The notes beneath the pieces are model-generated. The model saw nothing but the letters and a program-made list of their open reading frames with translations. It ran no database searches and had not been told where the DNA came from. A DNA stretch of 34,990 bases. It comes from a virus (taxonomy: Duplodnaviria; Caudoviricetes). Where the stretch lies: IMG/VR virus record IMGVR_UViG_3300032283_000325, positions 1 to 34,990 of that record. One strand, written 5' to 3'. The translations under genes were made by a program, and so were the position numbers. Shown one piece after another: positions 3,846-34,109 of this stretch. Within the stretch, counting starts at the first letter, position 1. The number at the start of each line of letters is the position of its first letter.

Positions 3846-3922
3846 GCCCCGCCACGCTATCGGGGTCTGATTGCCTCGCCGCAAAAAAGAAAAAAGTGGT
3901 CGGATTTCTTACAGCCGGGGGC

Positions 3923-7015: not shown

Positions 7016-7210
7016 ATGCCGCGCCAGGAGGAGGACGAGGACATCGTAGACCGTATCAAGGGCAGCGCGACGACCGACCCCCTCACCATTGAGGCGATGC
7101 ACGAGGTGATTCGCATCCGCCGGGAGATGGCGCGGATCATGCGTACCGGGAATCAACTACAGCAGGAGTTAGAACTTTGCAAGAGCCAGCAGGCCAAGCA
7201 GGCGCGTTGA
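7016..7210 (+). CDS. Small coiled-coil phage protein (DIVxRL...EAxxEIxRLR type)
   Basis: EDIVDRIK...EAMHEVIRIRRE; resembles 34246..34458. Confidence 0.65.
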   Translation: MPRQEEDEDIVDRIKGSATTDPLTIEAMHEVIRIRREMARIMRTGNQLQQELELCKSQQAKQAR

Positions 7211-7608
7211 TGTTTACCGTCCCCGGCGCAGCCGCGCCGCAGGGAAGTAAGACCGTTTTCCGCAGGGGTAGCCGCATCGTCCTTGTGGAGTCAAGCGCCA
7301 AGGTCAAGCCCTACCGCGCCGCCGTGGCGGCAGCAGCCTACGCCGCCGGCGCGACCGTGGTGGACGGCCCGGTCAGCGTGCGCGTGGCGTTCTCGTTCGT
7401 CCGTCCCGCCAGCCATTTCGGGGCGCGTGGGCTGCGGACAGCCGCCCGCACGTTCCCCGGCAAGCCCGATACCGACAAGCTCGTGCGGGCCACGCTAGAC
7501 GCGCTCACGGGCATCGCCTACCGCGACGATGCACAAGTCGTGGAAATTTGGGCCACGAAGGCATACGGGCCGACCGCGCAGACGGTCATCGCTATTTCGG
7601 CCGCTTGA
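7210..7608 (+). CDS. rusA: RusA-family Holliday junction resolvase
   Basis: PQGSK, KPDTDKLVRATLDALTG and YRDDAQVV motifs. Confidence 0.92.
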   Translation: MFTVPGAAAPQGSKTVFRRGSRIVLVESSAKVKPYRAAVAAAAYAAGATVVDGPVSVRVAFSFVRPASHFGARGLRTAARTFPGKPDTDKLVRATLDALTGIAYRDDAQVVEIWATKAYGPTAQTVIAISAA

Positions 7609-7632: not shown

Positions 7633-7694
7633 GATTACGCCCTCGCACGTTGCGCGGGACGGGCGCGGCGCTCCGCGTACATGAGGAGATGCAT

Positions 7695-8618
7695 ATGGAA
7701 CTCGCAAGGATCGGGCAAGCGCAGCTTGACCCCATGTCGGTCGCCCAGGTGTTCAAGGCTTCGGGGATGTTCCCCGACATTCAGTCGGAGGCCGCAGCGT
7801 GCGCGAAGATCATCATCGGGCGCGGCCTAGGCCTGTCGGACTATGACGCGATGACGGGCCTGCACATCATCAAGGGCAAGGCCGTGTTGGCCGCCAACCT
7901 GATGGCCGCCGCCATCAAGCGCGCAGGGAAGTACGACTACCGCGCCGCCTGCACGGACACGGAGTGCAGCATCGTGTTTTTCGGCCGCAGCCCGGAGAAC
8001 AAGTGGGAGGAGATCGGGACCACGACCTTCTCAATGGACGATGCAAAGCGAGCGCAGCTCGGCGGAGACAATTGGCGCAAGTGGCCCAAGGCCATGCTCT
8101 TCGCCCGCTGCATCTCGAGCGGCTACAAGCAGCATTGCCCGGACGCGCTTGGCGCGGCCCCGGTGTACGTTGAAGCCCACGGCGAGACCGAGATCACGGA
8201 GGAGGCCCCCAAGGCCCGCGCCGCCCTTGCCGCCCCCGCAGCCCCTACGATTGACGCAGAGGCCTCCGTGGTGGAGGATGCCCCAAAGCCCGTCCGCAAG
8301 CGCACGGCCAAGCAGGAGGCCAACCCGGCCCCGGAAACCCCGAAGGCGGCTGACGGCTACCCCGACGAGTACGAGGGCGAGTTCAAGATCCTGCGCGTGG
8401 TGCGCCGCCCCGGCAAGCCCATTGCAATTAACGCCGTGGGCGAACACGGCGCGGTGTGGATCGCCACCTCCGTGGCCGAATACGGTGACCTGGCGGACGC
8501 GAACGTGGACAAGGAGATGTGCCTTGAGGTCGCCCGGATCGGGCAGACCCTACAGGTCATGCGCGTCATCGGGCCGATTGCCCCGGCCAAGGTTGACCCG
8601 GCGGACGTACCCTTCTGA
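7695..8618 (+). CDS. RecT/Red-beta-like single-strand annealing protein with an SSB-like C-terminal tail
   Basis: GLHIIKGK, FSMDDAKRAQL, NWRKWPKAMLFAR; ends in DVPF; GAGGAG SD. Confidence 0.75.
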   Translation: MELARIGQAQLDPMSVAQVFKASGMFPDIQSEAAACAKIIIGRGLGLSDYDAMTGLHIIKGKAVLAANLMAAAIKRAGKYDYRAACTDTECSIVFFGRSPENKWEEIGTTTFSMDDAKRAQLGGDNWRKWPKAMLFARCISSGYKQHCPDALGAAPVYVEAHGETEITEEAPKARAALAAPAAPTIDAEASVVEDAPKPVRKRTAKQEANPAPETPKAADGYPDEYEGEFKILRVVRRPGKPIAINAVGEHGAVWIATSVAEYGDLADANVDKEMCLEVARIGQTLQVMRVIGPIAPAKVDPADVPF

Positions 8619-19883: not shown

Positions 19884-20924
19884 TCAGGTCGTGACATCAA
19901 GCACCAGCACGCCGGACACCGGGGCAACCAGTTCCGAGGTGCTGTTGTCGATCACGCGGCCTTCGATGCGACGATCACGCGGATCGTCCCAGTTCTCAAC
20001 AGTCATGTCCTCAAAAGCGAAGATCTGACAGGTGGAGAACGAGGTGGAGCCTTCCACGCCCACCAAGCCACCCGGACGGCTCACGAACACGGCCGAGTTG
20101 CCGTAGACGAAGGAGCGGGTGGTGCTGGCAGCACCCTTGCGGGTAGTGACCTTCACGCTGTCATCGACCACGACCTGCACGCCGAACAGGTTCGGCGGGA
20201 GGCCGTACTTGGCGAAGACATCGTTACCCTGGAGGAAGGGCAGAGCGGCCGGGTAGTTCTTGACGTAGTTCCGAACTTCTTCGGTCTGCGACAGCAGATT
20301 GGCAATCGTGGGCGAGATCACCATCATGATGTCGGTCTCGCCACGCACCGCGCCGCCCGTGGCAAGCGAGATGCGCTGAAGGGCGGTCTGAATGCCCTTC
20401 TGAATGATGTTGGTCGAAGATGCGGTCCATGAAGCACCCGAGATCGCCGTTCCGGTCGCGTAGTAGTTGCCCACGTTGTTGAACGAGGTCTGCGCTGCGC
20501 TGCCCACGAGGGCGGTCGCGGTACGCATGGAGCGAGCCGTCATGGCGAGCTGCGCCTTCGCACGAGCGTGCTGGGCGACAACGTCCCACGCGGCCTGCTT
20601 CACGGTCTCGTTCGGGATGTAGAACGGGTAGGCGAAGCGAGCAGCGGTGAACGCCACGAAGTCGTGCTGGTTCATCTTGCCGACCGGGCGGTCATTGCCC
20701 AGGGGCCAAGCGAACTCGTTCACATCAGTCACGCGGACGTTGTCGTCCGAGTCAAGACGGAGGTAGTAGCCCGTCATCTGCTGGGTGGGAACGATCTGCG
20801 CGTACTTCGTGATGGGGAAGGTGTTCACCGCACGGGTGAATTCAACCTGGAGAGCGCCCGTTGCGAGGGCATTGGTGGAGGGGACGAACGTATTCAGTCC
20901 GCCACCGACTGCGACATAACTCAT
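19884..20924 (-). CDS. Major capsid protein (HK97 fold expected)
   Basis: 346 aa, strong AAGGAGG SD, strongly biased codons, follows scaffold and cement genes, hairpin after it. Confidence 0.85.
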   Translation of the reverse strand: MSYVAVGGGLNTFVPSTNALATGALQVEFTRAVNTFPITKYAQIVPTQQMTGYYLRLDSDDNVRVTDVNEFAWPLGNDRPVGKMNQHDFVAFTAARFAYPFYIPNETVKQAAWDVVAQHARAKAQLAMTARSMRTATALVGSAAQTSFNNVGNYYATGTAISGASWTASSTNIIQKGIQTALQRISLATGGAVRGETDIMMVISPTIANLLSQTEEVRNYVKNYPAALPFLQGNDVFAKYGLPPNLFGVQVVVDDSVKVTTRKGAASTTRSFVYGNSAVFVSRPGGLVGVEGSTSFSTCQIFAFEDMTVENWDDPRDRRIEGRVIDNSTSELVAPVSGVLVLDVTT

Positions 20925-20950: not shown

Positions 20951-21340
20951 TCAGAGCGCCTTGGTGGCGGGGAGACGGTAAGCCCAGAAGATCGCGCCAA
21001 CCGACGCGTCCTCGAGAGCAACGAACAGGGGAACATCGCCGCTCGTGGACGTACCAACGGCTGCGCCAGCGGTCGTTGCCTTGAGAGCAAGACCAGCGGT
21101 GATGGCCGTGGAGCCGTTGCACTTGAGCTGCACGCAGTTGGACGGCTGGAGGCTGATCGGGTCGCCCGAAGCCGCGTGGAGCGCGGAGTCAAAACGCTTG
21201 GTCGAACCGTCAGCAGCGCCGACAACGTAGTCAGCAGCAGCGGTGGAAGCCGCGCCCGTGAATGCCGTGGTGGACATCTTCACGATGGCGTAGGGGTTGA
21301 TGTCGCCGCCTGCGATGAGATTGGGGGAGAACTGAAGCAT
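20951..21340 (-). CDS. Capsid cement/decoration protein (DUF2190-like)
   Basis: 129 aa, Ala/Gly-rich, AITAGLALKATTAGAAV...VALEDAS; between scaffold and capsid genes. Confidence 0.8.
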   Translation of the reverse strand: MLQFSPNLIAGGDINPYAIVKMSTTAFTGAASTAAADYVVGAADGSTKRFDSALHAASGDPISLQPSNCVQLKCNGSTAITAGLALKATTAGAAVGTSTSGDVPLFVALEDASVGAIFWAYRLPATKAL

Positions 21341-21361: not shown

Positions 21362-21985
21362 TTAACGCTTGATGCGGGAGTTGATGGCCTTGGCGAACTC
21401 TTCCGGCTTGCCAGCGAATTCCTTGACCAACGAGGAGATGTCGCCACCGCTGACGGTCTTCGGCATGGCCGCACGGCTCATGTCGATCTTCGCGCCGATG
21501 GGGTCACGGGAGAACAGGGAGCGCCACGACTCAAGCAGGGCGACCGGGTCGTTGCTGGCCTGGAGCTGAGTCATCAGGTTGTCGCGCTGCGACTCGGGGA
21601 TGCGGTAGCCGTCCTGCTCGAGAATGTCGATCTCGCGGGAGAACTTCTCGCGGCGGATCTCGGCCTCAAGGCGCTCCATGCGGGACTTCAGGCGGGCGTT
21701 CTCCGAACGCAGCGAGTAGGTCGAACGGGCAGCGACCACGGGCATGGCCTCTTCCTCTTCCTCGTCAATCGAATCCGGCGCATTGCCGTGCGAGCCGATG
21801 TCGATGTGGACGCCGTCCTCGGCATTCTTGGACTTGTATTCCATGTCCGTCATGGTCTCGGCGGACATCTCGTCCTTCTCTTCCTTGGACTCGTCCTCAC
21901 CGAACTTCTTCTTCATCATGTCAGCGAGTTCGCCGATGGCGCACTTCATCGCCTCAAGCTCTTCGCGGTAATCGTTGGATGCCAT
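21362..21985 (-). CDS. Nested scaffold protein from an internal start (MASNDYREELE...)
   Basis: In-frame ATG at 21985 preceded by AAGGAGG; analogous to Mu I/Z and lambda C/Nu3. Confidence 0.7.
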   Translation of the reverse strand: MASNDYREELEAMKCAIGELADMMKKKFGEDESKEEKDEMSAETMTDMEYKSKNAEDGVHIDIGSHGNAPDSIDEEEEEAMPVVAARSTYSLRSENARLKSRMERLEAEIRREKFSREIDILEQDGYRIPESQRDNLMTQLQASNDPVALLESWRSLFSRDPIGAKIDMSRAAMPKTVSGGDISSLVKEFAGKPEEFAKAINSRIKR

Positions 21986-22873
21986 TGAGGCTTCCTCCTT
22001 GGTGGTCGCCGGGACAAAGGTGTTGAGTCCGCCTCCGACCCCGGCGAGGTCGAAGTTTGACTTGGAACAAGTGATCTTCTTTCCCTCGCGGGCGAAGTGA
22101 GTATCAGGCAACGGCCGGCGCGGGGTCTCGCGGCCCAGCAGGGCCACTTCCGACAGGTGGTTCGATTCAGCCCAAATCTCTGCCGACCGACGCGGGAACG
22201 CGTTGGTTGCAATGAGGCTGTCGAAGATGGGCTTGTTCACCTCCATGTCTCCCACAATGTAACCGATGCCATTGCGTTCTTCGTAATTGATCGAAGGAAT
22301 TCTGCCCACGGCGCTCTTCGGCTCGTCCCCGTTCTTCTCGTGCATGACCACGACCTGGGGGAAGGAGCCACGCGCCATGTGGGCGCGGGTGGCGCGCACG
22401 ATGGACTTCAGGCGCTCGTTGTTGAACCGCTTCAGCTCCGGGTCGGACTCGCCATCGTCAATAGCCGGGTCGAACGCCATGAACAGCTCCACGCGCTCAA
22501 TCTTGATCTTCTCGCCGTCTTCCTGCACGCTGTGCGATGCCTTGCTATTCATGGTCTTGTCCTCCTTGCGGTCAAGTTCCTCGCTCTTGCGGTCGGCCCA
22601 CGCCTTGCCGGCATCGCCACCCCACAGAAGCCACGCGATATACCCGGCAGAATCCTTGCCCCAACCCTCGCCCTTCTTGTCCACCTCGTGGCGGGCGAAG
22701 TAGGAGTTCATCCGGCGCACCGTGTCGGGGGACAGGTTCTTGCGGTTCTTGATGTCCCGCGCTCGAGCAACGCCGACCTCCGTGCCGCCACGGCCGTGCT
22801 TCTCGCGCAGCGCCAGCCCGCGCTCGGCGTTGGCGGCCATCTCTTCGGTTGGCTTGAGGTCGATTTCGCTCAT
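21362..22873 (-). CDS. Prohead protease-scaffold fusion (Mu gpI-like) with an extra N-terminal domain
   Basis: VVMHEK, PRRSAEI and EVALLG protease-like motifs; acidic, coiled-coil C-terminal half. Confidence 0.8.
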   Translation of the reverse strand: MSEIDLKPTEEMAANAERGLALREKHGRGGTEVGVARARDIKNRKNLSPDTVRRMNSYFARHEVDKKGEGWGKDSAGYIAWLLWGGDAGKAWADRKSEELDRKEDKTMNSKASHSVQEDGEKIKIERVELFMAFDPAIDDGESDPELKRFNNERLKSIVRATRAHMARGSFPQVVVMHEKNGDEPKSAVGRIPSINYEERNGIGYIVGDMEVNKPIFDSLIATNAFPRRSAEIWAESNHLSEVALLGRETPRRPLPDTHFAREGKKITCSKSNFDLAGVGGGLNTFVPATTKEEASMASNDYREELEAMKCAIGELADMMKKKFGEDESKEEKDEMSAETMTDMEYKSKNAEDGVHIDIGSHGNAPDSIDEEEEEAMPVVAARSTYSLRSENARLKSRMERLEAEIRREKFSREIDILEQDGYRIPESQRDNLMTQLQASNDPVALLESWRSLFSRDPIGAKIDMSRAAMPKTVSGGDISSLVKEFAGKPEEFAKAINSRIKR

Positions 22874-24621
22874 GTCGCGGCCATCAGGGAACTAATGACA
22901 AGATTTGCCAATGCGGTGTAGCCATCAGAAGTGTCCTTAGTTGATCCCGTATAGGTTCCACCGGACAGATGAATGGTGATATCAGAGCCAGCATTCGGCA
23001 AGTTGTTGTATCGCTGGTAATACGCACGACCGTTGCCGACACCCGTGATGTTCTGCGTATATGTCAGCAGCTTCTTTACATCCACCACGGTCATGTCCGT
23101 GTAGGTAGTTGGCATCGTGTTGGCTGCGGTACGGATCGTGGCAAGGTTGCCTGTGCTTCCCGAATTGCTTGTGTCCGTGGAGTTCGGAACATGGGAAACG
23201 AATGACACCCATGCAAGATCGGCAGCGGGATATCCAAGCGCAGCCCATGCAGTCTTGTAGGTATTCCACACATCAAGATGTGCAGTCTGCCAGGTCGAAG
23301 TTGTGTCTGCTCCGTTGATACCAGAGTGCATCATCAACAGCACGCGACCTGATCCTGTTGCAGCAATTTGTCGAGCGCGCAATTCCTGCAAATGGACTTG
23401 CAAGGCACTTGATCCAATTCCCGACATCACCGAGTCAATCGTTGTGCTATCAGCTCCGCTCATGTATCCGTGACTATGAACCGACCAACCCTTGCGCTGA
23501 CAGTAGATGCTATGTCCGTGAATTGCTACTGGGCCAACCGCACCACGACTTCCAGCAACCGTTCCGCCTCCAAAACACGCTGCTTCAATTTGAGCTGCAC
23601 CGCTTGGAGTGAACGAATACTCAGTAGTTGCAACACTATTGGCGTTGCCTGTGTTGGTGTTGACCACCGAATTCGTTGCGATTGTTGAACCGCCAAAGTT
23701 GCGAACGGCAGCACGGAAATATCCGCTGCCCGTGCTGAAGGTTCCCCACCGAATTCGATGAATAAGTGTCAGCGATGTATTGAAAAGCGGATGAGATGTC
23801 TCAATATAAACCTGGGGATACCAATTCCAATATTCTGCGCCGCTGATGTATGCCCAACCATCCTTCGCACTCGGATAAGTTCCGTATCTCGTCCAAGCTG
23901 TTCCTGGAGTCCAGTAAGCGTAATTGGTTGCGCCTCCGCTGGTGTTTCCATTCAACAGCGTCCCTCTTGGCTGATAGACATAAGCCGAGCCAAGCCATCC
24001 ACCCGTGTTGGTGTCAACAGCCCAATCGGTCATTGTGTGCGAGTACGGAGTTCCATAGATTGGATAGCCGCGATCATTCAGCGTCTGCGAGAATCCGTTG
24101 TGATAACCCCAAAATCCTGAAAGCGCACTTCCCGTATTGCTGTCACCAATAATGACAACATCAAGGCTATCCGTGCCGGAAGCAAGGTCTTTGAGGAATA
24201 AACCCGCACGGTTGCTTCCATACACAATCGGCCCAGGCTCGGCAACCTCAACCGAACCCACGCGCTGCGCCCACAAGATTTCTCCGCTGCTGGCTGCCTC
24301 GCAGGCCACAAACTGAATGCGAGTCGTTGCGGTAATCACCGCGCCATTGGTGGTCGGGCAAAGACCGTCACCAATGGCGATGGTTCCGCCAGCGCGGAGC
24401 TGAAGGAATTCGCTGTTCTGAAGCACGACCGGGTCGCCGGCAATGGCGTGATCCGTGCTGGCAAAGCGCCGCGTGCTGCCGTCCGTCACACCAAGCACAA
24501 TGTCAGTTTCGGCGGTAGCCACCACGACCTTGAACGGGTCGGTGGTGGTTGCTTCCACGCACGAGAACGGCAGGATGGTTCCTGCGGCGGTGAAGTTCGG
24601 AGTGTGTCCTGCGATGCCCAT
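22870..24621 (-). CDS. Cement-domain / SGNH(GDSL)-hydrolase-like fusion protein
   Basis: N-terminal ~125 aa paralogous to the cement proteins; IIGDSN, SGING and DITIHL blocks. Confidence 0.75.
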   Translation of the reverse strand: MGIAGHTPNFTAAGTILPFSCVEATTTDPFKVVVATAETDIVLGVTDGSTRRFASTDHAIAGDPVVLQNSEFLQLRAGGTIAIGDGLCPTTNGAVITATTRIQFVACEAASSGEILWAQRVGSVEVAEPGPIVYGSNRAGLFLKDLASGTDSLDVVIIGDSNTGSALSGFWGYHNGFSQTLNDRGYPIYGTPYSHTMTDWAVDTNTGGWLGSAYVYQPRGTLLNGNTSGGATNYAYWTPGTAWTRYGTYPSAKDGWAYISGAEYWNWYPQVYIETSHPLFNTSLTLIHRIRWGTFSTGSGYFRAAVRNFGGSTIATNSVVNTNTGNANSVATTEYSFTPSGAAQIEAACFGGGTVAGSRGAVGPVAIHGHSIYCQRKGWSVHSHGYMSGADSTTIDSVMSGIGSSALQVHLQELRARQIAATGSGRVLLMMHSGINGADTTSTWQTAHLDVWNTYKTAWAALGYPAADLAWVSFVSHVPNSTDTSNSGSTGNLATIRTAANTMPTTYTDMTVVDVKKLLTYTQNITGVGNGRAYYQRYNNLPNAGSDITIHLSGGTYTGSTKDTSDGYTALANLVISSLMAAT

Positions 24622-24624
24622 ATG

Positions 24625-25011
24625 TCAAATCTCCCAGGTCTGAACGCGGAAGGCCCAAAGAATTTCACCGCTAGCGGCATTGTCGCACGCTTGGAGGAAC
24701 GCACGTTCCCCCGTACCAATCTTCTCCACAAGGCCAGCCGTGGATGCCTTGAGGAGATCACCGACCACGATGGTCCCGTTGGACTGCACCTGGACAAAGC
24801 GGCTGTTCTGAAGGCTGATCGTGCCGCCTGCTGCCGCGTGTTCGGTGGAGTCAAAGGCCCGCGTAGATCCGTCCGTAACGCCGAGAACGATGTGAGCCGG
24901 ATCGGTGGCCGGGATGGCCGTGAACGCCGCGCTGGTACTCATCCGCACTACCCGAAACGGGTAGACGGTCGATCCTGCCTTGAAGTTGGGGACGTAGCCT
25001 GCGGTTCCCAT
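24625..25011 (-). CDS. Second capsid cement paralog
   Basis: Shares PN...DGST.RF/AFDS..HA..G..ISLQ.S..VQ...W with 20951..21340. Confidence 0.8.
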   Translation of the reverse strand: MGTAGYVPNFKAGSTVYPFRVVRMSTSAAFTAIPATDPAHIVLGVTDGSTRAFDSTEHAAAGGTISLQNSRFVQVQSNGTIVVGDLLKASTAGLVEKIGTGERAFLQACDNAASGEILWAFRVQTWEI

Positions 25012-25018
25012 TAGATCC

Positions 25019-26257
25019 TCATGCGGTGAGAGACTGAAGCGTGGCGTTAGAAAGCACGGCAGGCCAATACTTGATTGAACGAATGCTGTTGTTCAGCACG
25101 ACCGTGGTTCCCGTGATCGACGTTCCGTTCGTAGACGGAGCGCCAATACTCAACCATGTTGAGGCGGAGCTAAATGCCAGCGTTCCGCTGGCAACCGTGC
25201 CACCGTTCAAACACAGGTTGGTAGCCGTGCCGTTATAACTGAATGCGCCCTTTGTCAACGCGCCTGCGGTCATGCTATTTGCGGTCGTGACGGTAGCCGC
25301 AGCGTTGAAGTCTGCCAACCGCAGAGTGAGCGCAGATGCAGTTTGGTACATGTGCAAATGCTTGGTCGTTTGATCGTTAGTTGCAATGACCGTGCGGGCT
25401 GTTGAGCTTGATGCGTTGGCGTACCAATTAGCGACGAACGTACCCGTTGTCCCGCCCGTGTACCATGAGTCGAACTTCGCTCCAGCGGCAATAATGGCGG
25501 TATCAACCGCCCTGCTCACCGAACTTGCCACGGTCGGGATGTACGAAGACATGGAACCTGTTTCCAGTTGTGCGCCCCACAGATGAACAGTAGCCGTTTT
25601 GGGACTCCCCGAATTAAGTACGCGAATCTCAATTCCATCGCTTGTGGTACTGGATGTAAACGTCAACTGCACACGTTGCCATGCAGTAGTGAGAGTCGGG
25701 AAGATTGCTCCAGCAGAACCAGCAGAGCGAGCAAATCTGACATTCGTAACCGTTCCAGAATCAGCACGCATCCACATAGATATGGTGTACTGCGTTGCGT
25801 TCAAAACTGTTACGGAGCGAGAAATCACCGCATCTGTTGTCGTTGCATCGAATACAAGTTTCGAAGCTGTTGAGTTGTTTCCCGGATCAGTTTGTCCGGT
25901 CGTCCTCGTTACTGACGTTCCAAACGCACTCCATGTCGTGTTGTTCCCCTGATCCTCGCTGTAGGTCATCAGGTTGGTCGCGCTCCCCTCAATCAACAAT
26001 CCTTTAGGCTGGAGCGTTGTCGGGTCATAGTCAAAGCGTGGATCTTGAGCTGATGAAACGGTTGTGACGTAGCCAAGGTTGTTGATAAAGGTAGCCCGCG
26101 CCGTAGCGTCCGCGCGGCTAAACGTGATCCGCGAATCAAGGACACCCGTGGTGAAATCAATTGACAGCGTTGAGCCGTCGCCAGCGCGACTCATCAGCTT
26201 GCTCGCATAAGACGAGCCGCTGATGCGTGACATCGTTGGGCGGTTGGCGCGATTCAT
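25019..26257 (-). CDS. Head fibre / virion adhesin with carbohydrate-binding-like domains
   Basis: TFSRA...PRFDYDP...GLLIEGSATNL, WGAQLE..SSYIPT, LamG-like C-terminus. Confidence 0.75.
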   Translation of the reverse strand: MNRANRPTMSRISGSSYASKLMSRAGDGSTLSIDFTTGVLDSRITFSRADATARATFINNLGYVTTVSSAQDPRFDYDPTTLQPKGLLIEGSATNLMTYSEDQGNNTTWSAFGTSVTRTTGQTDPGNNSTASKLVFDATTTDAVISRSVTVLNATQYTISMWMRADSGTVTNVRFARSAGSAGAIFPTLTTAWQRVQLTFTSSTTSDGIEIRVLNSGSPKTATVHLWGAQLETGSMSSYIPTVASSVSRAVDTAIIAAGAKFDSWYTGGTTGTFVANWYANASSSTARTVIATNDQTTKHLHMYQTASALTLRLADFNAAATVTTANSMTAGALTKGAFSYNGTATNLCLNGGTVASGTLAFSSASTWLSIGAPSTNGTSITGTTVVLNNSIRSIKYWPAVLSNATLQSLTA

Positions 26258-26826
26258 CAGAGGGTGGACCAGAACGCGCCCATGTCGGGCGTGCCGCTGG
26301 ACTTGAACTGAGCGGTGACGTACTGCGCGCCTGCCAGGTCGATCATCGCATAGGCGGGTGCCACGTTTGTTTCAGCAGACGTGGCCGGGGAATACAGGTT
26401 CGCCGCCGGGGTTCCCGAGACCTGTGTGATGCCGCTGAACGTGCGCGTATTCGCAACGCTGTCAATGGTGTAGTTCGGGACCGTGCCGGTCGTGAAGGTC
26501 AGCGTCAAATCCGCCAGCACCGTGGGGATGTACCAAAAGGTTGTGCCAGCGGCCTCAAGGTACTTGCGCCATCCGATGATCCGCATACCGATAGTGGTCT
26601 GCGCGGTGGTGGCCGACACCAAGAACGGGCTGACGTACAGCAGGGAGGCGTTCTGACCGCTCACCGATGCGCTGGTGATGTCAAACAGCAGCACGTTCCC
26701 GCTTCCCGAAGTGCCGCTAGACGGCACGGTCGTGGTCAGGACGGCGGATGCCGCGTTGTAGGTGGCCGGAACGGACGCTGCCGTCACCTTGCGGAAGTTT
26801 TCCTGCGGGGTCGTAATCGGGGGCAT
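26257..26826 (-). CDS. Hypothetical virion protein, 189 aa, Thr/Ser-rich
   Basis: TGATG coupling on both sides within the head module. Confidence 0.7.
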   Translation of the reverse strand: MPPITTPQENFRKVTAASVPATYNAASAVLTTTVPSSGTSGSGNVLLFDITSASVSGQNASLLYVSPFLVSATTAQTTIGMRIIGWRKYLEAAGTTFWYIPTVLADLTLTFTTGTVPNYTIDSVANTRTFSGITQVSGTPAANLYSPATSAETNVAPAYAMIDLAGAQYVTAQFKSSGTPDMGAFWSTL

Positions 26827-27812
26827 CAGAGTTCTCCTCGGCGCTTCATGTCAAGCGCAATGGCAACCGCCTGGTCCTGCGGCTTGCCTTCCTTGATGAG
26901 TGTGCGGATCTTGTCGCTGACGGCCTTGTCGGCCTTCTCCATGAGCTTGAGGCCGGCCTTGTCCTGCTCGGTCTCTTCGATCTCGGGCTTGGCGGCGGTG
27001 GCCTTCGGGACGCAGTTGGGAACGTCCTTGCCGTCCTTGGTCTTCATGCCCACGGCCTCGTAGCCCTTCCAGCACGCGTCCTCGAGGCCCATGTTGGCCT
27101 TCGCGCCGGGGCGGGATGATTCTTCCTTGGACGGGAGAACATAAAACATTCTTCCACGGCCCCGGAATACGCGACCAAGGTTGTAGCGGTCGCTAAATGA
27201 CTGAGCCTGTGTTTGATTGGCAAATCCCGCAGGATCGCCGTCATCCCACGCTGCAACGACATCGCCCGTGTTGAGGCGGAATGTCTTTCCCGAGTACCCA
27301 CGCGCCATCTCCGCCTTCGCGCCGGGGCGGGAGAAGCCGCGAGACTTCATGTTGGTTTCCAACATCCGCGCAATGCCGATGACTTCGTTGATAGCCTTTT
27401 GATCGCCCGCATCGGCCTTGCTCATCATGGCGTTGGCGCGCTTGATCCACGATTCGGTATCAGCCATCGCCCTGCGATAAGACGCAATGCGTTCTTCGGT
27501 CAGCGCAATCTGATTTTCCGCCTGCTCGTATGAGGAAACGGCAAACTTCGCCTTCGCGCCGGGGCGGGAGGCGCGGAGGCTTTCGCGAAGTTCGTTCATT
27601 CTCTTATCGGCAGATTGTAATTCGTTTTGGAGCCTTGACTTTTCAACTCCTGAAGCACGCGCAATGCGTGTCATCAATTTGCTAGTCTTTTCTCGCAAGT
27701 TGGCGTACTCAACATAATCGCTTTGCTTGTCCATCTCCGCCTTCGCGCCTGGACGCGCAAACACCCCGAGCCGCTGTTCGATTTCGTTGCGAATGTCGCT
27801 CATGCCTTCCAT
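26826..27812 (-). CDS. Modular head-associated polyprotein with four RPGAKAx(M/F) linkers
   Basis: Repeated linker; C-terminal CWKGYEAVGMK...VPNCVP and EGKPQDQAVAIAL mini-domains; start at 27812 or 27803. Confidence 0.75.
   Translation of the reverse strand: MEGMSDIRNEIEQRLGVFARPGAKAEMDKQSDYVEYANLREKTSKLMTRIARASGVEKSRLQNELQSADKRMNELRESLRASRPGAKAKFAVSSYEQAENQIALTEERIASYRRAMADTESWIKRANAMMSKADAGDQKAINEVIGIARMLETNMKSRGFSRPGAKAEMARGYSGKTFRLNTGDVVAAWDDGDPAGFANQTQAQSFSDRYNLGRVFRGRGRMFYVLPSKEESSRPGAKANMGLEDACWKGYEAVGMKTKDGKDVPNCVPKATAAKPEIEETEQDKAGLKLMEKADKAVSDKIRTLIKEGKPQDQAVAIALDMKRRGEL
27097..27758. repeat. Four dispersed 20-nt direct repeats GCCTTCGCGCCGGGGCGGGA
   Basis: Exact copies at 27097-27116, 27313-27332 and 27550-27569; degenerate copy at 27739-27758; spacings 216, 237 and 189 nt. 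Confidence 0.9.
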
Positions 27813-27833
27813 CGTAGCGTCCTCCTATGCGAT

Positions 27834-28922
27834 TTACGCATTCACAAATCCGGGATCGGGAATCTGCCGCGTGTCAATGAGCTGCTGGCGCTTCCCGTTG
27901 TGCCGCTTTAGCGCGGCGTAGTTCACGTTGCCATCCACATCCGTCCACCCGCGCTCGAGGGCGCGCGCCGCCGGCACGGGTATCAGCGCGCAGCGGCAGT
28001 TGAATCCGCACGGCGGTGCGATCCCCTGGCGGTCGAACATCTCCATCGTGCCGATGTAGCCATCCAAGCCCTGATGCGTGGGCCGCGTCCGGTTGTCCCC
28101 GGTCGCGCTGTATTCCACCAGCGGCACGAACGCCTGCACCTTCGGTTCGCGCAGGGTCTCCGCAAGCCCCTCCGTGGCTGCTCGGTTGGTGTTCGTGCGT
28201 AGCACGGTCTCAAGCCGCGCCGTGGTCAGGTGCGTCCCCGTGACCATCTGCGTGGTGGTCACGAAGTCCCCGAGGTTCATCTTGCGTATCCACTTGCCCA
28301 CCACGGACTTGCCGGGTTTCTCTTCGATGACGCGGGCAATCAGCTCCTGCGTCTGCCGCGTCTGCTTCGGGTTCATGGCGGTCACGAAGAACGTGCCGTC
28401 GGTGATCCGCTTGGCCGTGGAGATTTGCCCACCCTGGGGATTGACCGTGATGCCGCGCAGGAGCGAATCAAGCACCGGGTTACGGGCGCGCATATCGGGC
28501 AGGGCGTTGTCGCGCTCGTGGTCGGCCACCTCGCCGCCGCTGCGCTGGGCGGCCTCAATCAGCACATCCCAATCCGTGCGCGAAATCGGCACGCGGGTGC
28601 GGAACCAGTTGGCGATGGGGGCGAGGAAGTCGCGGCCGAAGCCCTCCAGCGCAATTCCCGTTTCCAAGCGGTCGAAGGTCAGGGCCGTGTTGTCCTCGAG
28701 CATCCCCGTCACGGCCTCGTCGGGGATCTTGGCCTTGTCGATGGCCTCCCGTGCGCCGAAGAGCCACGATGCCATCAGGAGGGCCGACGTTGCCTCGTGG
28801 AACGTCCGCCAATGCTCCGCGCCCGTTTCCCCCAGTACCTGGGCTGCAATGCCCCTGCGGTACGCCTGCTGCGCCTCCTTGAGAACGCTGCGGAGGTGCT
28901 TGTCTAGCGCGGCGCGGTTCAT
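27834..28922 (-). CDS. MuF / SPP1 gp7-like head morphogenesis protein
   Basis: RLETVLRTN, YSATGDNRTRPTH and PPCGFNCRC motifs. Confidence 0.93.
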   Translation of the reverse strand: MNRAALDKHLRSVLKEAQQAYRRGIAAQVLGETGAEHWRTFHEATSALLMASWLFGAREAIDKAKIPDEAVTGMLEDNTALTFDRLETGIALEGFGRDFLAPIANWFRTRVPISRTDWDVLIEAAQRSGGEVADHERDNALPDMRARNPVLDSLLRGITVNPQGGQISTAKRITDGTFFVTAMNPKQTRQTQELIARVIEEKPGKSVVGKWIRKMNLGDFVTTTQMVTGTHLTTARLETVLRTNTNRAATEGLAETLREPKVQAFVPLVEYSATGDNRTRPTHQGLDGYIGTMEMFDRQGIAPPCGFNCRCALIPVPAARALERGWTDVDGNVNYAALKRHNGKRQQLIDTRQIPDPGFVNA

Positions 28923-30409
28923 GCCTTGCGCTTGCGCTTGCGGACGGCCACGACCTTGGGAGCCTGCGGGGCGGGTTCCTCACCCTCCGGGGCATCGTTG
29001 CCCATGCCAAGCATGGCTGCAATGGGGTTGTCCCCGCCGGCCGACTTGCCACCAAGGACGGGTTCGCCGTCCATCGGTTCGGCAAGGCCGAGGAGGTCGC
29101 GCACCTCGCGTTCGCTGACGCGGCCGCCGAGGGCCACAAACTTCTCCACGGCCTCCAGGCGTTCCTTGGTGTCCGGGCGCTCCGGGGCGAAGTTGAAACG
29201 GATGGCGCGGGCTTCGTCATCGGACGCGCCGAGCATCTTGGCAACCACGCGCACGAGGTCGGTGGTGATGGATTCCGCCAGCGCGTCCGCGTGGTAGCGG
29301 ATGACGCGGGAGAGGGTGTCAGCGTGGAGGTCGGCAACGCCGGACCCCATGCCCGTGCCGCCCGCCTCGCTCGAGAGCGACTGCCCAAGGATGGCCTCCT
29401 TGAGCTTGCTGCTGCACCAATCGACCATCTCCATGAAGATTTGTGCACGGCCTGCGTTCGCGTCCTTGATGTCGATGTCGTACATCGACTCGTTCGGGCT
29501 AATGCGCGGCAGCACCACGGAATTGTCGTTGACGAGGTTTTGAAGAACCGTCAGCATCTCGTTCTTGGCCGCATCGTTGCCAGCGGGGTAGTAGCCCACC
29601 CGGATGCCGAGCGCGTATCGCTCCGCGTAGGCGGCGGCGTTCTGAAGGATTTCCTGCTTCAGCAGCCAAATATACCAGCACACATCGCGTGCGCCCACGC
29701 CGCGGTAGACCTGGTCGGCGCTGTTCGGGTCGATGAAGTTCGGGGCGGTCGTGAAGACGCGGTGCAGGACAATGGCGCGGCGCTCGTTGTCATCGAACAG
29801 GTGGACGAGCGAGTCAAATCCAAGGTCGGTCACCGACGATTCGTTGATGTACGCCGAGCCAACGCGCATAGCCACGTTGCCGCGCTGGTCGAATGCCAAG
29901 GTGTCGGAGGCGAACGGAATCCATTCGGCCACGCGCACGCCGAGATTTGCGTCCTTCTCGTAGACGATGTTGGTAGCGGACACGCCGTACCACACGGCCT
30001 CATGCATGGCGCGGAACAGGTCGCTGCGCCGGGGGATGGCGTTCACGATGTCTGCGATGCGGGAAGCGAGTTCCTGCGTGCGGGGGTTCTCATCATCGTC
30101 CGCGGTCACGGACCATTCAAGGCCAGCGAGGGTGACGAGGAGGGAGCGCAGGACACCTTCAATGTCCGCATCCATCCGCATCATGGCCTGATAGTTCACA
30201 TCCAGGCGGTACGCGAGGCTGCTGTTTCGCAGCATCAGGGACGCGGTACGGAAGTACGACCGCTGCACTTCCACGGGCAGGGCAAGCGGCCCGGTGGGTC
30301 CGCGGCTCGTGGGCGGTGGCAGGGGCTTGCGCGGCCGGCGTGCGGGCGGGAGGCCCGTTCCCGGAACGGCGTTCGGCATGAGTGGATTGCTGTGCTGCTG
30401 GTCTGCCAT
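28919..30409 (-). CDS. Portal protein (Mu gp29 / DUF935-like)
   Basis: AERYALGIRVGYYP, KEAILGQSLS and GVADLH motifs; between terminase and MuF. Confidence 0.88.
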   Translation of the reverse strand: MADQQHSNPLMPNAVPGTGLPPARRPRKPLPPPTSRGPTGPLALPVEVQRSYFRTASLMLRNSSLAYRLDVNYQAMMRMDADIEGVLRSLLVTLAGLEWSVTADDDENPRTQELASRIADIVNAIPRRSDLFRAMHEAVWYGVSATNIVYEKDANLGVRVAEWIPFASDTLAFDQRGNVAMRVGSAYINESSVTDLGFDSLVHLFDDNERRAIVLHRVFTTAPNFIDPNSADQVYRGVGARDVCWYIWLLKQEILQNAAAYAERYALGIRVGYYPAGNDAAKNEMLTVLQNLVNDNSVVLPRISPNESMYDIDIKDANAGRAQIFMEMVDWCSSKLKEAILGQSLSSEAGGTGMGSGVADLHADTLSRVIRYHADALAESITTDLVRVVAKMLGASDDEARAIRFNFAPERPDTKERLEAVEKFVALGGRVSEREVRDLLGLAEPMDGEPVLGGKSAGGDNPIAAMLGMGNDAPEGEEPAPQAPKVVAVRKRKRKA

Positions 30410-30849
30410 TAGGATTGCCCTGCGTATACGAGTGCCGTCAGATCGGCAACGGTCACACGTTCAGTCTTGCCATTGGGGTAGCGAAGCAGCTCCGTGGTGA
30501 CGAAACGGCCGTCCGGTCCTGGCGCGCTCTGCGAATCGCTGACGGAGTAGCCCATCTGCTTAAGGGCCGCCTGCTGCTCGTCGATATTGAGCCGCCGCGG
30601 GTTTGCTGGCAGTTTGATGTCGTGCTTCTTCTCCGGCTTCCACTCGCGGGTCGGCTTGGACTTCTGCCGCCTAGAAGTCGGCGCTGCTTTCTTTGCGGGC
30701 GCGGGCTTGCTTTCGGAGCCACCGCTACCGGGCTTGCCGCCGCAGTCGTTACCAGGCTCAAAGCCATTCGGGCCGATCCCGCAGTTGTCGAACAGAGCGC
30801 GGCGGGCAAAGATGCCTAAGCGGTTTTCGATTTCCTCTCGCGTGGTCAT
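30409..30849 (-). CDS. Small head-associated protein inserted between terminase and portal
   Basis: NCGIGPNGFEPGNDCG motif, basic linker; N-terminus shared with 26826..27812. Confidence 0.75.
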   Translation of the reverse strand: MTTREEIENRLGIFARRALFDNCGIGPNGFEPGNDCGGKPGSGGSESKPAPAKKAAPTSRRQKSKPTREWKPEKKHDIKLPANPRRLNIDEQQAALKQMGYSVSDSQSAPGPDGRFVTTELLRYPNGKTERVTVADLTALVYAGQS

Positions 30850-30867
30850 GGGTGGGAGTCTACCGCG

Positions 30868-32313
30868 TCACCCGAACATCCTTCGCTTCGGACCACGCGA
30901 TTCAAACATCCGCGTAGGCGTGGTGTTGACGGTCACCACGCCACCTTGGCTCACCACCGTGCCGCTGGCGGCCGCGTTGCAGAGGTCCACCACAACGTCC
31001 ACGGTGTCATCGTGCGACCCGGCGGGGAACGACAGCAGCTCGTCCAGCACCACGCGGAAATCGGGCGCGGCTTGGCCGTTTGCGGCCTGGGGGAAGTGGA
31101 GGCGGCCCTGCTCCACGAAGGGCTGCGCCCCGGCGGCGCGGAGGTGCTTGTCCGCCCCGCGCTCCACAGGGATGACGGGCTGACGGCAGCCCATGCGGAA
31201 TTGATCGAACACGCCCTTTTGCGGCCCGTTGGCCTCCGCGAGAACCAGTTGGCAGCCCCGGCGCTCCACCAGTTCCTTCGCCATGCGGGCGAAGTCCGGG
31301 AAGGACTCGCGCACGCGCAGGATGTCGGTCAGGTACAGGTTGCGGTTGTAGTCCACCTCGCCAACGATGCAGACGGAGTAGTCGGGATCGTCGCGCTCCT
31401 GACGCTTGCGGCCGTACCCCCAGTCGATGGCGGCGATGGTGCGCGACCCCGTGTGGTTGCCATCGTGATAGCGCACCCACTCGGGCCGGAACACGAGGAG
31501 GTCGGAGGACAGCGGCACAAGCTCGTAGGCGCGGGCGTAGGCCATCGGACCCATGTCGCGGCGGTTGCGGTTGAGCAGTTCAGCCGTAAAGACTTCGGGC
31601 CACGGGCTTTCCAAGCCCCGGCATGGCTTCCGCAGGAGCGTGCCGTTCTCCTCGCACTCGCGCCGCCATTGGGCGGTGATGTCATCCGTGTGGAAGGGCG
31701 TGGCCGTGCGCCAAATGCGCGCCGGGTGCTTGGCGGACGGGTCAAGCATCGGCAGCCAAATGTTCGCCATCGCCTCCTTGACCTGTTCGCGTAGTGCGGG
31801 TTGCAGTACCGCGTTGCGGAGGTCGCAGATGTCATCGGGCCACAGGATGTCGGCGCGACCGCCCGTGCGGCCGAAGATGCCGGAGGCTTGCACGGACGGG
31901 TCGCGGCGTGCGGGCAGACCGGGGGCGGTCACGCTCCAGGCGGTCACGGTGTCCTCACCGGGCTTGAGGGCAACGTGGGGGACCACGGCCCGGTACAGGG
32001 GGCTGCGGATGATGTCGCGCAGGAATCGGCTCGTGGCGCTGGCGGCCTCGTCGTTGGACCCGATGAGCTTGAACCGGGTCGCGGGGCGGCGGCCCAGCCA
32101 CCACGCAGCGAGGTAGGTTAGGCTCGAGGTCTTACCGTGGCCGCGGGGCAGCTCGGCGTACCAGCGGTGATGGGTGGCCGCGTGGATCAGCAGTTCGCGT
32201 TGCAGTTTGCTGATGGGCTTGCCGATGAGCAATGCGATAAAGGCCGCCGGGTTCTCCCGTGCGGCCTCCACGGCCTGGGTCGCGGTCAGGGCTTGCGCTT
32301 GGGCTTTCGGCAC
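30868..32313 (-). CDS. terL: Terminase large subunit
   Basis: Walker A PRGHGKT, Walker B ILWPDD, TATPFH, nuclease motifs AIDWG...DYS...HDDTVD. Confidence 0.95.
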   Translation of the reverse strand: MPKAQAQALTATQAVEAARENPAAFIALLIGKPISKLQRELLIHAATHHRWYAELPRGHGKTSSLTYLAAWWLGRRPATRFKLIGSNDEAASATSRFLRDIIRSPLYRAVVPHVALKPGEDTVTAWSVTAPGLPARRDPSVQASGIFGRTGGRADILWPDDICDLRNAVLQPALREQVKEAMANIWLPMLDPSAKHPARIWRTATPFHTDDITAQWRRECEENGTLLRKPCRGLESPWPEVFTAELLNRNRRDMGPMAYARAYELVPLSSDLLVFRPEWVRYHDGNHTGSRTIAAIDWGYGRKRQERDDPDYSVCIVGEVDYNRNLYLTDILRVRESFPDFARMAKELVERRGCQLVLAEANGPQKGVFDQFRMGCRQPVIPVERGADKHLRAAGAQPFVEQGRLHFPQAANGQAAPDFRVVLDELLSFPAGSHDDTVDVVVDLCNAAASGTVVSQGGVVTVNTTPTRMFESRGPKRRMFG

Positions 32314-32685: not shown

Positions 32686-33861
32686 TTACACTTCCTCGCG
32701 GGTGGCCGTCTGCCCGGTCAGGGTTTCCCACCGCTTCACGATGACATCGCAGTACGCGGGGCTGATCTCCATGCCATAGCAGGCGCGGCCAAGCTGCTCG
32801 GCGGCGATCAGGGTCGTGCCGGAGCCAAGGAAAGGGTCACAAACAAGTTCTGCCTGCACACTTTGCATGATGTCCACAAGCAGTTTGACGGGCTTTTGCG
32901 TTGGATGCGCTCGTCTTTCATTTCTTTCAGTTGCTGCCCATCCAACCCATCTAATCCAAAACGCCCGCCGTTTATGTGAAATTTTGCTCCACAGCAGTTC
33001 GATGTCGTTTCCAATCATTTCTTTATCTGCTTCACCGCGCTTTATCCATACAGACCACGAGCCACCCGAAGGAAGAGTTTCGCGGTAGTAATCCGCGCCA
33101 AACCACATTTCTTCGCGTGCTTCGATTGCAATTGATCGACGGTCGAAAGGACGGTCATCTCCGATGACTCTTTCGTACTCGTAGCCACAAGCATTTGGAG
33201 ATTTTGAAGTTCCCTTGATGGCAGAATAATCCGTATTCAGGTTCATCCCATATGGCGGATCTGTAAGCACAAGATCCGCTTTTTTCTCATCCATCAGCCG
33301 CTGTACATCTTCGACCTTGGTGCTGTTTCCGCAGAGCAAGCGGTGCTTGCCCAGCAGCCACAGGTCGCCGGGTTGCGTGATGGGTTCGGCGGGCGGCTCG
33401 GGTACATTGTCCTCGGTCACCTCGGGCGCGTTAGCGGCGGCGAGCTTGACGAGTTCCTTCTCGTCAAAGCCTGTGGCGGCAAGGAGTTCCTCGTCGTCGA
33501 TGGCGATGGCGGCGAGCTGCTGCTGAAGGGCGGCATCGTCCCATTCGGCTAGTTCGGCGGTGCGGTTGTCCGCGATGGCAAAGGCGGTCGCCTCGCTGCC
33601 AGCGAGGTTGGTGCGGACGGCCTTGATGGTCTGCCACCCCAGGGCGCGGGCGGCCATCAGGGTTCCGTTTCCGGCGATGACCACCCCGTCCTGATTGACC
33701 ACAATGGGCTTCTGCTGGCCGAAGCGGGCAAGGCTGGCCTTGATGGCGGCCAGGTTCTGCTCCCCGTGCTTGCGGACGTTGGCGGGGTCGTTGTGCAGCT
33801 CGGCGCAGGGGATGTCCACGATGCCCATGTCCACGCCGCTGGGGGTCTTGGCCTTGCTCAC
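32686..33861 (-). CDS. ParB-like N-terminal domain fused to a DNA adenine methyltransferase
   Basis: PANVRKH...FGQQKPIVV...IAGNG...IADNRTAE; HRLLCGNS, TDPPY, HPTQKP, DPFLGSGT; GTG start overlaps the upstream stop. Confidence 0.93.
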   Translation of the reverse strand: MSKAKTPSGVDMGIVDIPCAELHNDPANVRKHGEQNLAAIKASLARFGQQKPIVVNQDGVVIAGNGTLMAARALGWQTIKAVRTNLAGSEATAFAIADNRTAELAEWDDAALQQQLAAIAIDDEELLAATGFDEKELVKLAAANAPEVTEDNVPEPPAEPITQPGDLWLLGKHRLLCGNSTKVEDVQRLMDEKKADLVLTDPPYGMNLNTDYSAIKGTSKSPNACGYEYERVIGDDRPFDRRSIAIEAREEMWFGADYYRETLPSGGSWSVWIKRGEADKEMIGNDIELLWSKISHKRRAFWIRWVGWAATERNERRAHPTQKPVKLLVDIMQSVQAELVCDPFLGSGTTLIAAEQLGRACYGMEISPAYCDVIVKRWETLTGQTATREEV

Positions 33862-34109
33862 TTGTGCTTCCTTTCCATCAGGATGAGGTCGAATCCGGCG
33901 GCGTTCGCCACCTTCAGGATGGAGTCGAAGGTGGGCTTGCGCTTCCCGATGACCGTGCCGGGTGTGCCGAGGAGGCATCGGACGGTATGGGCGCGCAGGA
34001 TGCCGTTGGCTTCCATCTCGCGGGCGAGGCCGGATCGCGTGCCGCCAGCGGCGGCCACGGCTTCGGTGATGGTGGCCTTGAATTGATCGTAGGTCGTGAT
34101 TACTGCCAT
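33858..34109 (-). CDS. XRE-like HTH protein, 83 aa
   Basis: TRSGLAREM...KPTFDSILKVANAAGFDL. Confidence 0.7.
   Translation of the reverse strand: MAVITTYDQFKATITEAVAAAGGTRSGLAREMEANGILRAHTVRCLLGTPGTVIGKRKPTFDSILKVANAAGFDLILMERKHK

What the first reader, a model, noticed from the sequence alone, without database searches (positions are those of the whole stretch)
26826..27812. Cassette-array polyprotein: unrelated modules joined by an identical DNA/peptide linker in the head module
Seen: directly after MuF, one ORF contains (A/S)RPGAKA(EM/KF/EM/NM) four times. Three copies are identical over 20 nt including synonymous positions, and copies 1 and 3 share a 19-nt stretch running through the EM codons. 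Spacings of 189, 237 and 216 nt are all multiples of 3. The intervening 55-71 aa modules are mutually unrelated (two helical, one alpha/beta) and more AT-rich than the GC-rich constant C-terminus, which holds CWKGY...VPNCVP and EGKPQDQAVAIAL mini-domains. Inference: the repeat serves twice, as a recombination site for in-frame gain, loss or shuffling of cassettes (a RecT-like annealase is encoded at 7695) and as a prohead-protease site that releases small injected effectors such as anti-defence proteins. Similar x-M/F junctions occur in the protease-scaffold protein (KSNF, KKKF, KDEM, KIDM). This is the best candidate here for an undescribed system.
Basis: partly seen in the sequence, partly recalled or inferred. 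Interest (0 to 1): 0.85.

Follow-up and report, generated by a model that had tools for sequence, protein, structure and literature searches.

The report
Shuffled mini-protein cassettes in phage head
A small lake phage strings unrelated mini-proteins into one head-region gene, joined by a short linker with a fixed DNA spelling at which related phages add, lose and reorder them; the linker is likely also the cut site of the phage's head protease, which would free a changeable cargo predicted to travel in the virus particle.

Summary
The 328-aa ORF has a leader, three unrelated 54-70-aa modules and a tail, joined by four [SA]RPGAKAx[MF] linkers. Across 206 related proteins, 548 internal modules fall into 204 families. 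Of 76 module pairs seen together at least twice, 22 occur in both orders, and 25 near-identical loci carry 12 different arrays. DNA similarity between relatives ends at the linker (297 of 349 ends; 21% expected), and its codons are fixed far beyond codon usage. In-frame shuffling at the linker is therefore shown. Five complete genomes each encode a RecT- or ERF-type annealase and no tyrosine integrase. Cleavage is inferred, not measured. The 503-aa protein has a T4-gp21-like fold. [FM]|[AGSD] sites are enriched in its scaffold, two relatives' scaffolds contain the linker itself, and a mini-domain shared with other aquatic phages is preceded there mostly by Glu and here by Met/Phe/His/Asn/Ala. 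Modules are basic and under purifying selection, but their function is unknown; anti-defence is an analogy to T4 internal proteins. Ten literature searches found no description. Earlier unchecked scan notes describe a parallel Glu-linker system in T4-like phages.

The parts
26826..27812 (-). Cassette-array ORF, 328 aa, with a strong AGGAGG ribosome-binding site
27759..27812 (-). Leader (aa 1-18, ...IEQRLGVF); similar leaders start most related arrays and the 146-aa ORF; candidate targeting peptide (inferred)
   Evidence: (repeat D15)
27732..27758 (-). Linker 1, ARPGAKAEM
27570..27731 (-). Module 1 (54 aa, helical; family 8, 9 members)
   Evidence: (exact copy in another context, run X6)
27543..27569 (-). 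Linker 2, SRPGAKAKF
27333..27542 (-). Module 2 (70 aa, helical hairpin; family 0, the commonest: 19 members, 12 different left and 9 different right neighbours)
27306..27332 (-). Linker 3, SRPGAKAEM
27117..27305 (-). Module 3 (63 aa, alpha/beta at low confidence; family 22, 6 members)
27090..27116 (-). Linker 4, SRPGAKANM
27003..27089 (-). CWKGY...VPNCVP mini-domain; optional; matched in 227 annotated phage records, mostly cyanophages
26985..27002 (-). Secondary junction (K)ATAAKP, where relatives insert further modules
26829..26984 (-). C-terminal helix-turn-helix tail (GKPQDQAVAIAL; phrog_2423); fused to portal in some relatives
21362..22873 (-). Protease-scaffold, 503 aa: mobile N-terminal domain (phrog_2859); gp21/assemblin-fold protease (invariant His178 and Ser230, catalytic role inferred); KSNF|D boundary at 22049-22063; acidic scaffold with multiple F/M|small sites
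30409..30849 (-). 146-aa ORF with the same kind of leader, between terminase and portal; relatives hold arrays in this slot, or carry a similar domain inside the array
7650..8618 (+). RecT-like single-strand annealing protein; candidate recombinase (inferred)
27834..28922 (-). MuF minor head protein, upstream neighbour; 93.6-98.3% nt identical in strains with different arrays

Best explanation
This is an in-frame cassette array in the head gene cluster of a 35-kb freshwater phage: related phages add, lose, reorder and exchange ~70-aa modules at a codon-fixed linker, likely by short-homology recombination through the phage annealase, and the same linker is predicted to be cut by the prohead protease so that the polyprotein, likely built into the prohead, would release small basic proteins that likely act in the host at the start of infection, probably against host defences. 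Shown: shuffling at the linker, fixed codons, purifying selection on modules, constant position in the head module (about 0.95). Inferred: general annealase rather than a site-specific recombinase (about 0.8); cleavage after the linker's F/M, and perhaps also before its Ser (about 0.75); encapsidation (about 0.7); delivery and host-directed activity (about 0.5).
For: Shuffling: 155 distinct architectures among 159 proteins with two or more modules; 22 of 76 repeatedly co-occurring family pairs occur in both orders. 24 loci plus the window with MuF 93.6-98.3% nt identical hold 12 arrays. 297 of 349 blastn segment ends lie in or within 10 nt of a linker, against 21% expected. The exact 15-nt core occurs in 31 of 41 linkers from loci not selected on linker DNA, against 2-5% by codon usage. 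Module 2 is 98.6% nt identical between phages whose MuF is 50% aa identical. 13 of 18 and 13 of 16 listed loose contig ends in lake runs lie at linkers. Lineage-specific linkers are uniform within a protein (SRSGGK 13 of 15 in P0128; SRAGAK; SRTGAK) yet share the module pool. 5 of 5 complete genomes carry RecT-like (2) or ERF (3) annealases; 0 of 5 have PF00589, and none has PF00239 over its cut-off. Cleavage: the protease model's best match is T4 gp21 (Z 8.1, rmsd 3.4, 117 aligned), and it also matches phage maturation proteases (E 1e-6). The residue before the module is M 43%/F 37% in 629 unconstrained [SA]RPGxK matches, and it switches within 24 of 64 families, mostly between F and M, which needs two base changes. 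14 of 14 aligned proteases have [FHA]|[DGE] at the protease/scaffold boundary. [FM][AGSD] is enriched in 7 scaffolds (121 vs 79.6, 0 of 400 shuffles) and not in 9 other protein sets. The scaffolds of L035 and L006 contain SRPGKADTF|A and SRRGKVDTF|A. The CWKGY module follows M/F/H/N/A in 11 of 11 rows of this group and E in 6 of 8 outside rows, and follows L-D-E in two cultured Kyanoviridae, fitting the gp21 rule L/I-X-E (PMC9026906). Cargo: arrays lie in head-module slots; pN/pS 0.17, with 34 of 36 pairs pN<pS; 78% of families have net positive charge and none has a transmembrane segment; one family is a stand-alone 94-aa gene in a small-ORF cluster of Agrobacterium phage Milano.
Against: No cut, virion protein or activity was measured. 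The stricter motif tests are not specific: Kxx[FM][AGSD] also exceeds all shuffles in gp36 and the 412-aa tail protein sets, and the wide motif does so in portal, terminase and the 412-aa set, probably because conserved sites in homologues count repeatedly. About half of the modules start with Met plus a small residue, as captured genes would. No module matches an effector or enzyme family: DUF7678 was the only Pfam hit over cut-off among 112 and 30 proteins scanned. Module 2 was found only inside arrays and module 3 had no stand-alone hit. Only 2 of 42 near-identical module pairs link divergent phages. The distant lineage (L078, L075, L056) lacks the scaffold site at the position of the L035 linker, and its second linker type SRPGxPxxF lacks the Lys. 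The protease model has mean pLDDT 61, and its Foldseek PDB hits are not significant. Annealases are common in phages, so their presence is not specific (own knowledge).
Confidence: 0.6

Rival explanations
1. The array is shuffled, packaged and cut, but its products stay structural: basic core or DNA-neutralising fillers, or scaffold helpers that leave the head and never act on the host.
For: The modules are basic. The linker motif occurs in scaffolds. The tail weakly resembles the scaffold C-terminus (hhalign probability 9%, E 0.0036). T4 core proteins are cut into fragments that mostly leave the head (PMC9026906).
Against: A filler role does not need 204 observed families (Chao1 354), each under purifying selection. 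One family is a free accessory gene in unrelated phages.
Confidence: 0.17
2. The linker is a recombination joint and flexible spacer only; the protein works uncut, for example as a beads-on-a-string head or surface protein, and F/M reflects captured gene starts and hydrophobic caps.
For: Codons are fixed at DNA level, which alone would conserve SRPGAK. Met precedes 94 of 204 families. The motif tests are partly unspecific.
Against: Phe precedes 97 of 204 families and is not a start codon. The residue switches within 24 of 64 families. The same CWKGY module has Glu at that place in acidic-linker phages. Leaders that lack SRPG keep KAx[FM].
Confidence: 0.12
3. The gene is a late, non-virion product (for example a superinfection or late counter-defence factor) that sits in the head operon only for its expression timing.
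For: There are no virion data. No capsid-binding element is shown.
Against: The arrays sit in two different head slots, between terminase and portal or between MuF and protease. They share mobile mini-domains with portal, MuF, capsid and protease.
Confidence: 0.07
4. Cassettes move by a dedicated site-specific recombinase acting on the linker, as in integrons.
For: The 15-nt core is nearly invariant.
Against: No conserved hairpin (z -0.25 to -1.29). No PF00589, and no PF00239 over cut-off, in 5 complete genomes. The linker sequence differs between lineages and is homogenised within a protein.
Confidence: 0.03
5. The variety is an assembly artefact of a short repeat.
For: All sequences are metagenomic assemblies. 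Linker 4 is not bridged by 31 nt on both sides in the probable source run.
Against: Exact repeats are 22 nt or shorter. Linkers 1-3 are bridged in run X1. One array recurs in five contig records. Frames stay open and modules are under purifying selection.
Confidence: 0.01

Closest known systems
Phage T4 internal proteins IPI-IPIII and Alt (capsid-targeting sequence plus gp21 processing; PMC9026906, PMC9391042, passages read)
   Same: Small, variable, basic head cargo freed by a gp21-fold protease. IPI inhibits GmrSD, and IPIII is needed on ECOR17.
   Different: T4 IPs are separate genes, each with its own N-terminal targeting peptide cut after L/I-X-E. Here many modules share one ORF and one leader, the predicted cut is after F/M, the site is also the DNA exchange point, and the phage is a 35-kb Mu-portal phage.
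Polyvalent proteins of phages and conjugative elements (Iyer et al. 2017, PMC5512222; abstract, section 6 and passages read)
   Same: Unrelated domains in one polypeptide encoded beside portal/MuF, predicted to be packaged, processed and delivered; cassette recombination is suggested for one case.
   Different: Those combine mostly enzymatic domains and are predicted to be processed by zincin-like peptidases. Here the modules are ~70 aa with no Pfam enzyme or LPD hit, and a repeated codon-fixed linker marks every joint.
PeSL cassettes of T4-type phages RB49/phi1 (PMC2839356; passages read)
   Same: A conserved repeat between orphan genes serves as the homologous-recombination point for insertion, deletion and exchange; mini-circles were shown.
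   Different: PeSLs are ~100-bp intergenic promoter/stem-loop elements between early genes. This linker is 27 nt, coding, in frame, has no conserved hairpin and lies in a late head gene.
Cyanobactin precursor peptides such as PatE (recalled, no call)
   Same: Leader plus hypervariable cassettes flanked by conserved protease recognition sequences.
   Different: Those are bacterial peptides with cores of a few residues and tailoring enzymes; these are folded ~70-aa phage proteins that change order and move between genomes.

Membership tests
T4 internal proteins | Separate small genes, each with its own N-terminal capsid-targeting sequence | tested here: not met
   One ORF, one leader, several modules
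T4 internal proteins | Cut after L/I-X-E | tested here: not met
   The linker ends in M/F
T4 internal proteins | Genome encodes a gp21/assemblin-fold prohead protease | tested here: met
   Best VIA match T4 gp21, Z 8.1, rmsd 3.4, 117 aligned; BFVD maturation proteases E 1e-6; model pLDDT 61
T4 internal proteins | Packaged in the head, processed and injected | not testable with these tools
   No isolate or proteome
Polyvalent proteins (Iyer 2017) | Several unrelated domains in one polypeptide in a portal-terminase head context | tested here: met
Polyvalent proteins (Iyer 2017) | Contain that paper's enzymatic, DNA-binding or LPD domains | tested here: not met
   Pfam on 112 and 30 array proteins: only DUF7678 over cut-off; remote homology not excluded
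Polyvalent proteins (Iyer 2017) | Processing by a zincin-like metallopeptidase | tested here: inconclusive
   No such Pfam hit in arrays or in 37 window proteins; not searched with dedicated profiles
PeSL cassettes | Intergenic promoter plus stem-loop element | tested here: not met
   The linker is coding; 0 sigma-70-like sites in 26000-31500; no conserved fold
PeSL cassettes | The repeat is the point of gene gain, loss and exchange | tested here: met
PeSL cassettes | Excised mini-circles | not testable with these tools
   Only contigs were available
Integrons | Tyrosine integrase IntI | tested here: not met
   PF00589 in 0 of 5 complete genomes; control found it in 14 of 14
Integrons | attC hairpin at each cassette | tested here: not met
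Tandem repeat protein | Units are diverged copies of one repeat | tested here: not met
   hhalign probability at most 0.23%; 165 short families collapse only to 151

The most novel reading that the evidence does not exclude
An integrase-free, integron-like library of several hundred injected mini-effectors. One 27-nt sequence, apparently borrowed from the scaffold's own processing site, is at once the crossover point that keeps every swap in frame and the site at which the prohead protease frees each protein. Unrelated phage groups would have built the same device independently, each on its own protease's specificity (F/M here, Glu in T4-like phages).
Probability: 0.45. Interest if true: 0.92.

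Novelty: new variant of a known kind. Interest (0 to 1): 0.78.

Why it matters
It shows how a small phage can carry and remix accessory functions without spending promoters, ribosome sites or targeting peptides on each one. It delimits, to the residue, more than 200 families of small, selected, unannotated proteins that are ready-made candidates for anti-defence screens. It predicts a non-glutamate specificity for a gp21-fold protease, and it makes the old idea of linker-mediated modular phage evolution testable inside a single gene.

Tried and rejected
PADLOC on 65 array proteins: one marginal hit, E 9e-4; PADLOC holds defence genes, not anti-defence genes. PDB sequence search with the protease profile: nothing. 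Foldseek of the protease model against PDB: no E below 0.001, weak herpes assemblins. ESM Atlas for the whole protein and for module 3: nothing usable. Single-sequence model of the array against BFVD: no E below 0.001. Alignment A2 (array plus fragments) was misaligned and not used. Stand-alone search for module 3: no candidate. tblastn of P0128 in annotated phages: the 40 of 89 records listed matched only its mobile N-terminal domain. Hairpin or attC-like structure at the linker: none. Internal translation starts: no well-spaced ribosome site before the module Met codons. Tail as a mimic of the scaffold's C-terminal helix pair: only a weak lead (probability 9%), and the complex prediction with the capsid protein was never run because the queue was full. 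Host: relatives sit in a Planctomycetaceae bin and a Nitrospiraceae bin, which conflict, so no host is assigned; the Sphingorhabdus match is chance. RNA runs held small shares, and the one laid covered only the tail end, so there is no statement on expression. Parts without cover in laid runs were not used as evidence. Scan look-ups by sequence and by place were empty.

Full report
Setting. The window is a whole 34,990-base virus record, rated 100% complete. Its minus strand carries terminase, Mu-type portal, MuF, the ORF in question, a 503-aa protease-scaffold, major capsid protein and tail genes. Runs that hold the region are mostly labelled freshwater or lake. The host is unknown.

The observation.

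The family. The protein search gave 356 relatives among 7,997 scored candidates, of which 120 were listed. These 120 plus 116 array ORFs from fetched loci reduce to 206 non-redundant sequences with 1-9 linkers. They hold 548 internal modules in 204 families, median 70 aa. Some long 'modules' are two modules with a missed degenerate linker. The 165 families with all members at most 115 aa merge only to 151 by profile search; the count is still rising with sampling, and Chao1 is 354. Longer relatives reach 15 linkers in 1,886 aa. In the loci of 3 kb or more that were mapped, arrays lie between terminase and portal or between MuF and the protease, sometimes in both slots.

Shuffling is shown. Among 159 proteins with two or more modules there are 155 architectures; identical proteins had been collapsed, which inflates this share. 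More telling, 22 of 76 family pairs seen together at least twice occur in both orders. Twenty-four loci (some are the same contig) plus the window, with MuF 93.6-98.3% identical in DNA, hold 12 arrays. One array recurs in five contig records, which may come from one campaign. Of 349 unique ends of DNA segments of at least 100 nt and 90% identity within arrays, 196 lie in a linker and 101 within 10 nt of one; 21% is expected. The 15-nt core is exact in 31 of 41 linkers from loci not selected on linker DNA, and in 151 of 177 from pattern-found loci after dropping one match per ORF. Codon usage predicts 2.0-4.7%. Of 42 module pairs at least 95% identical, 2 join phages with head genes under 85% identical, including module 2 at 98.6% nt with MuF at 50% aa. 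In lake-run contigs, 13 of 18 listed loose ends (20 not shown) and 13 of 16 (10 not shown) lie at linkers. One 2,008-nt contig carries another array between the same leader and the same CWKGY flank. In the probable source run linkers 1-3 are bridged and linker 4 is not.

How cassettes likely move. Other lineages use SRAGAK, SRSGGK or SRTGAK, uniform within a protein (13 of 15 in P0128), with modules from the same pool. That is what repeated crossover or duplication at the linker would give. Five complete genomes (the window and four picked from my loci) each have an annealase, RecT-like in two and ERF in three; none has PF00589, and none has PF00239 over cut-off. The linker forms no conserved hairpin. 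I infer short-homology single-strand annealing. T4 amplifications at 6-10-bp microhomologies (PMC9391042, passages) and PeSL exchange (PMC2839356, passages) are precedents. Fixed codons could reflect selection for exchange or simply recent spread; my data do not separate the two.

Cleavage is inferred. A model of the protease domain (14-row alignment, pLDDT 61) matches T4 gp21 best among 48,161 chains (Z 8.1), followed by VZV protease (Z 7.3), and matches phage maturation proteases in BFVD. In 629 [SA]RPGxK matches the ninth residue is M or F in 80%, and the next is A, G, D or S in 86%. The residue before the linker draws on a similar set (F 36, A 26, S 13, M 10%), so both ends may be cut. F or M precedes 191 of 204 families, and the residue switches within 24 of 64 families with three or more members. 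All 14 aligned proteases have F, H or A followed by D, G or E where the protease ends, including KAKF|G in L078. The dipeptide [FM][AGSD] is enriched in seven dereplicated protease-scaffolds (121 vs 79.6; 0 of 400 shuffles) and not in nine other sets (ratios 0.75-1.13). The stricter and wider motifs also exceed shuffles in proteins not expected to be cut (gp36, the 412-aa tail protein, portal, terminase), so those two tests are not specific. K[AS]x[FM][AGSD] is absent inside modules of up to 110 aa (0 vs 3.2 +/- 1.7 expected; weak). Two scaffolds carry the linker itself between the acidic region and the coiled coil. Near relatives have [RK]xx[YF]|small there, and the most distant lineage does not. 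The CWKGY mini-domain follows M, F, H, N or A in 11 of 11 rows of this phage group, and E in 6 and K in 2 of 8 outside rows. Several outside loci look T4-like by their neighbours only. In Synechococcus phage Bellamy and Prochlorococcus phage P-TIM68 the module follows L-D-E, matching the gp21 rule L/I-X-E (PMC9026906, passages).

The cargo. Modules are under purifying selection (rough pN/pS 0.17; 34 of 36 independent pairs), mostly basic, and lack transmembrane segments. Pfam gave only DUF7678 over cut-off. PHROGs matched three unknown small families (9437 and 7884 nearly end to end, 4709 in part). The 9437 family is a free 94-aa gene among small ORFs in phage Milano and hits 27 annotated phage records. 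Module 2 occurs only in array-type proteins (19 of 20 hits at E below 1e-4). Anti-defence function rests on analogy with T4 IPI and IPIII (PMC9391042, passages) and on the scale of the diversity.

What is known. It works like T4 internal proteins (cargo freed by the prohead protease, inferred) combined with PeSL-type linker exchange (shown), and it belongs to neither family, nor to integrons. It shares the architecture but not the domain content of polyvalent proteins (PMC5512222: abstract, section 6, passages). Ten full-text searches listed no paper describing such an array; I saw those results as listings only, the library lacks most subscription papers, and no supplements were read. Earlier notes of this scan (unchecked AI notes, not independent support) report Glu-linker arrays of the same design in T4-like aquatic phages. 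My searches show acidic-junction mosaics there, so this design is recurrent in the scan. The new points here are an unrelated small phage group, a non-glutamate linker, and the linker's presence in the scaffold.

Verdict. Real and widespread, with shuffling shown; processing and cargo function are likely but untested. New variant of protease-matured head cargo; interest 0.78.

Noticed in passing
window 22010-22042 (-) and start of 19884-20924 (-): Right after the predicted KSNF|D cut, the scaffold part reads GVGGGLNTFVP, nearly the same as the capsid protein's N-terminus (AVGGGLNTFVP); both are conserved in relatives down to 50% identity. Possible capsid N-arm mimicry.
   Followed up: partly
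L005, L029, L038, L053 (MuF genes): MuF carries a ~275-aa insert starting with Cys and ending Ser-Asn inside the CGFN|CRC motif, intein-like by its ends (recalled pattern), and absent from the window's MuF.
   Followed up: no
window 22560-22873 (-): The ~105-aa N-terminal domain of the protease (phrog_2859) is mobile: in other phages it is fused to portal, MuF, capsid protein or the arrays.
   Followed up: partly
window 20951-21340, 24625-25011 and the N-terminus of 22870-24621 (-): Three paralogous ~128-aa domains (phrog_673), one fused to a long variable domain; the genes between the array and the protease vary widely among near-identical strains.
   Followed up: no
window 21416-21442 vs 26829-26920 (-): The scaffold C-terminus (DISSLVKEFAGKPEEFAKAI) resembles the array tail (DKIRTLIKEGKPQDQAVAIA); weak profile match.
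   Followed up: partly
L052, L054, L078, L173: A distant lineage has two array genes side by side with two linker types, SRPGxPxxF and SRPGAKAxF.
   Followed up: partly
L016, L018, L022, L024, L026; P-TIM68 and Bellamy (L167, L168): Mosaic proteins with acidic xxE|E junctions, carrying the same CWKGY mini-domain.
   Followed up: partly
window 4892-5878 (+), 32686-33978 (-), 7177-7608 (+), 2934-3884 (-): Two N6/N4 DNA methylases (one with a weak ParB-like N-terminus), RusA and a metallophosphoesterase-like gene.
   Followed up: no
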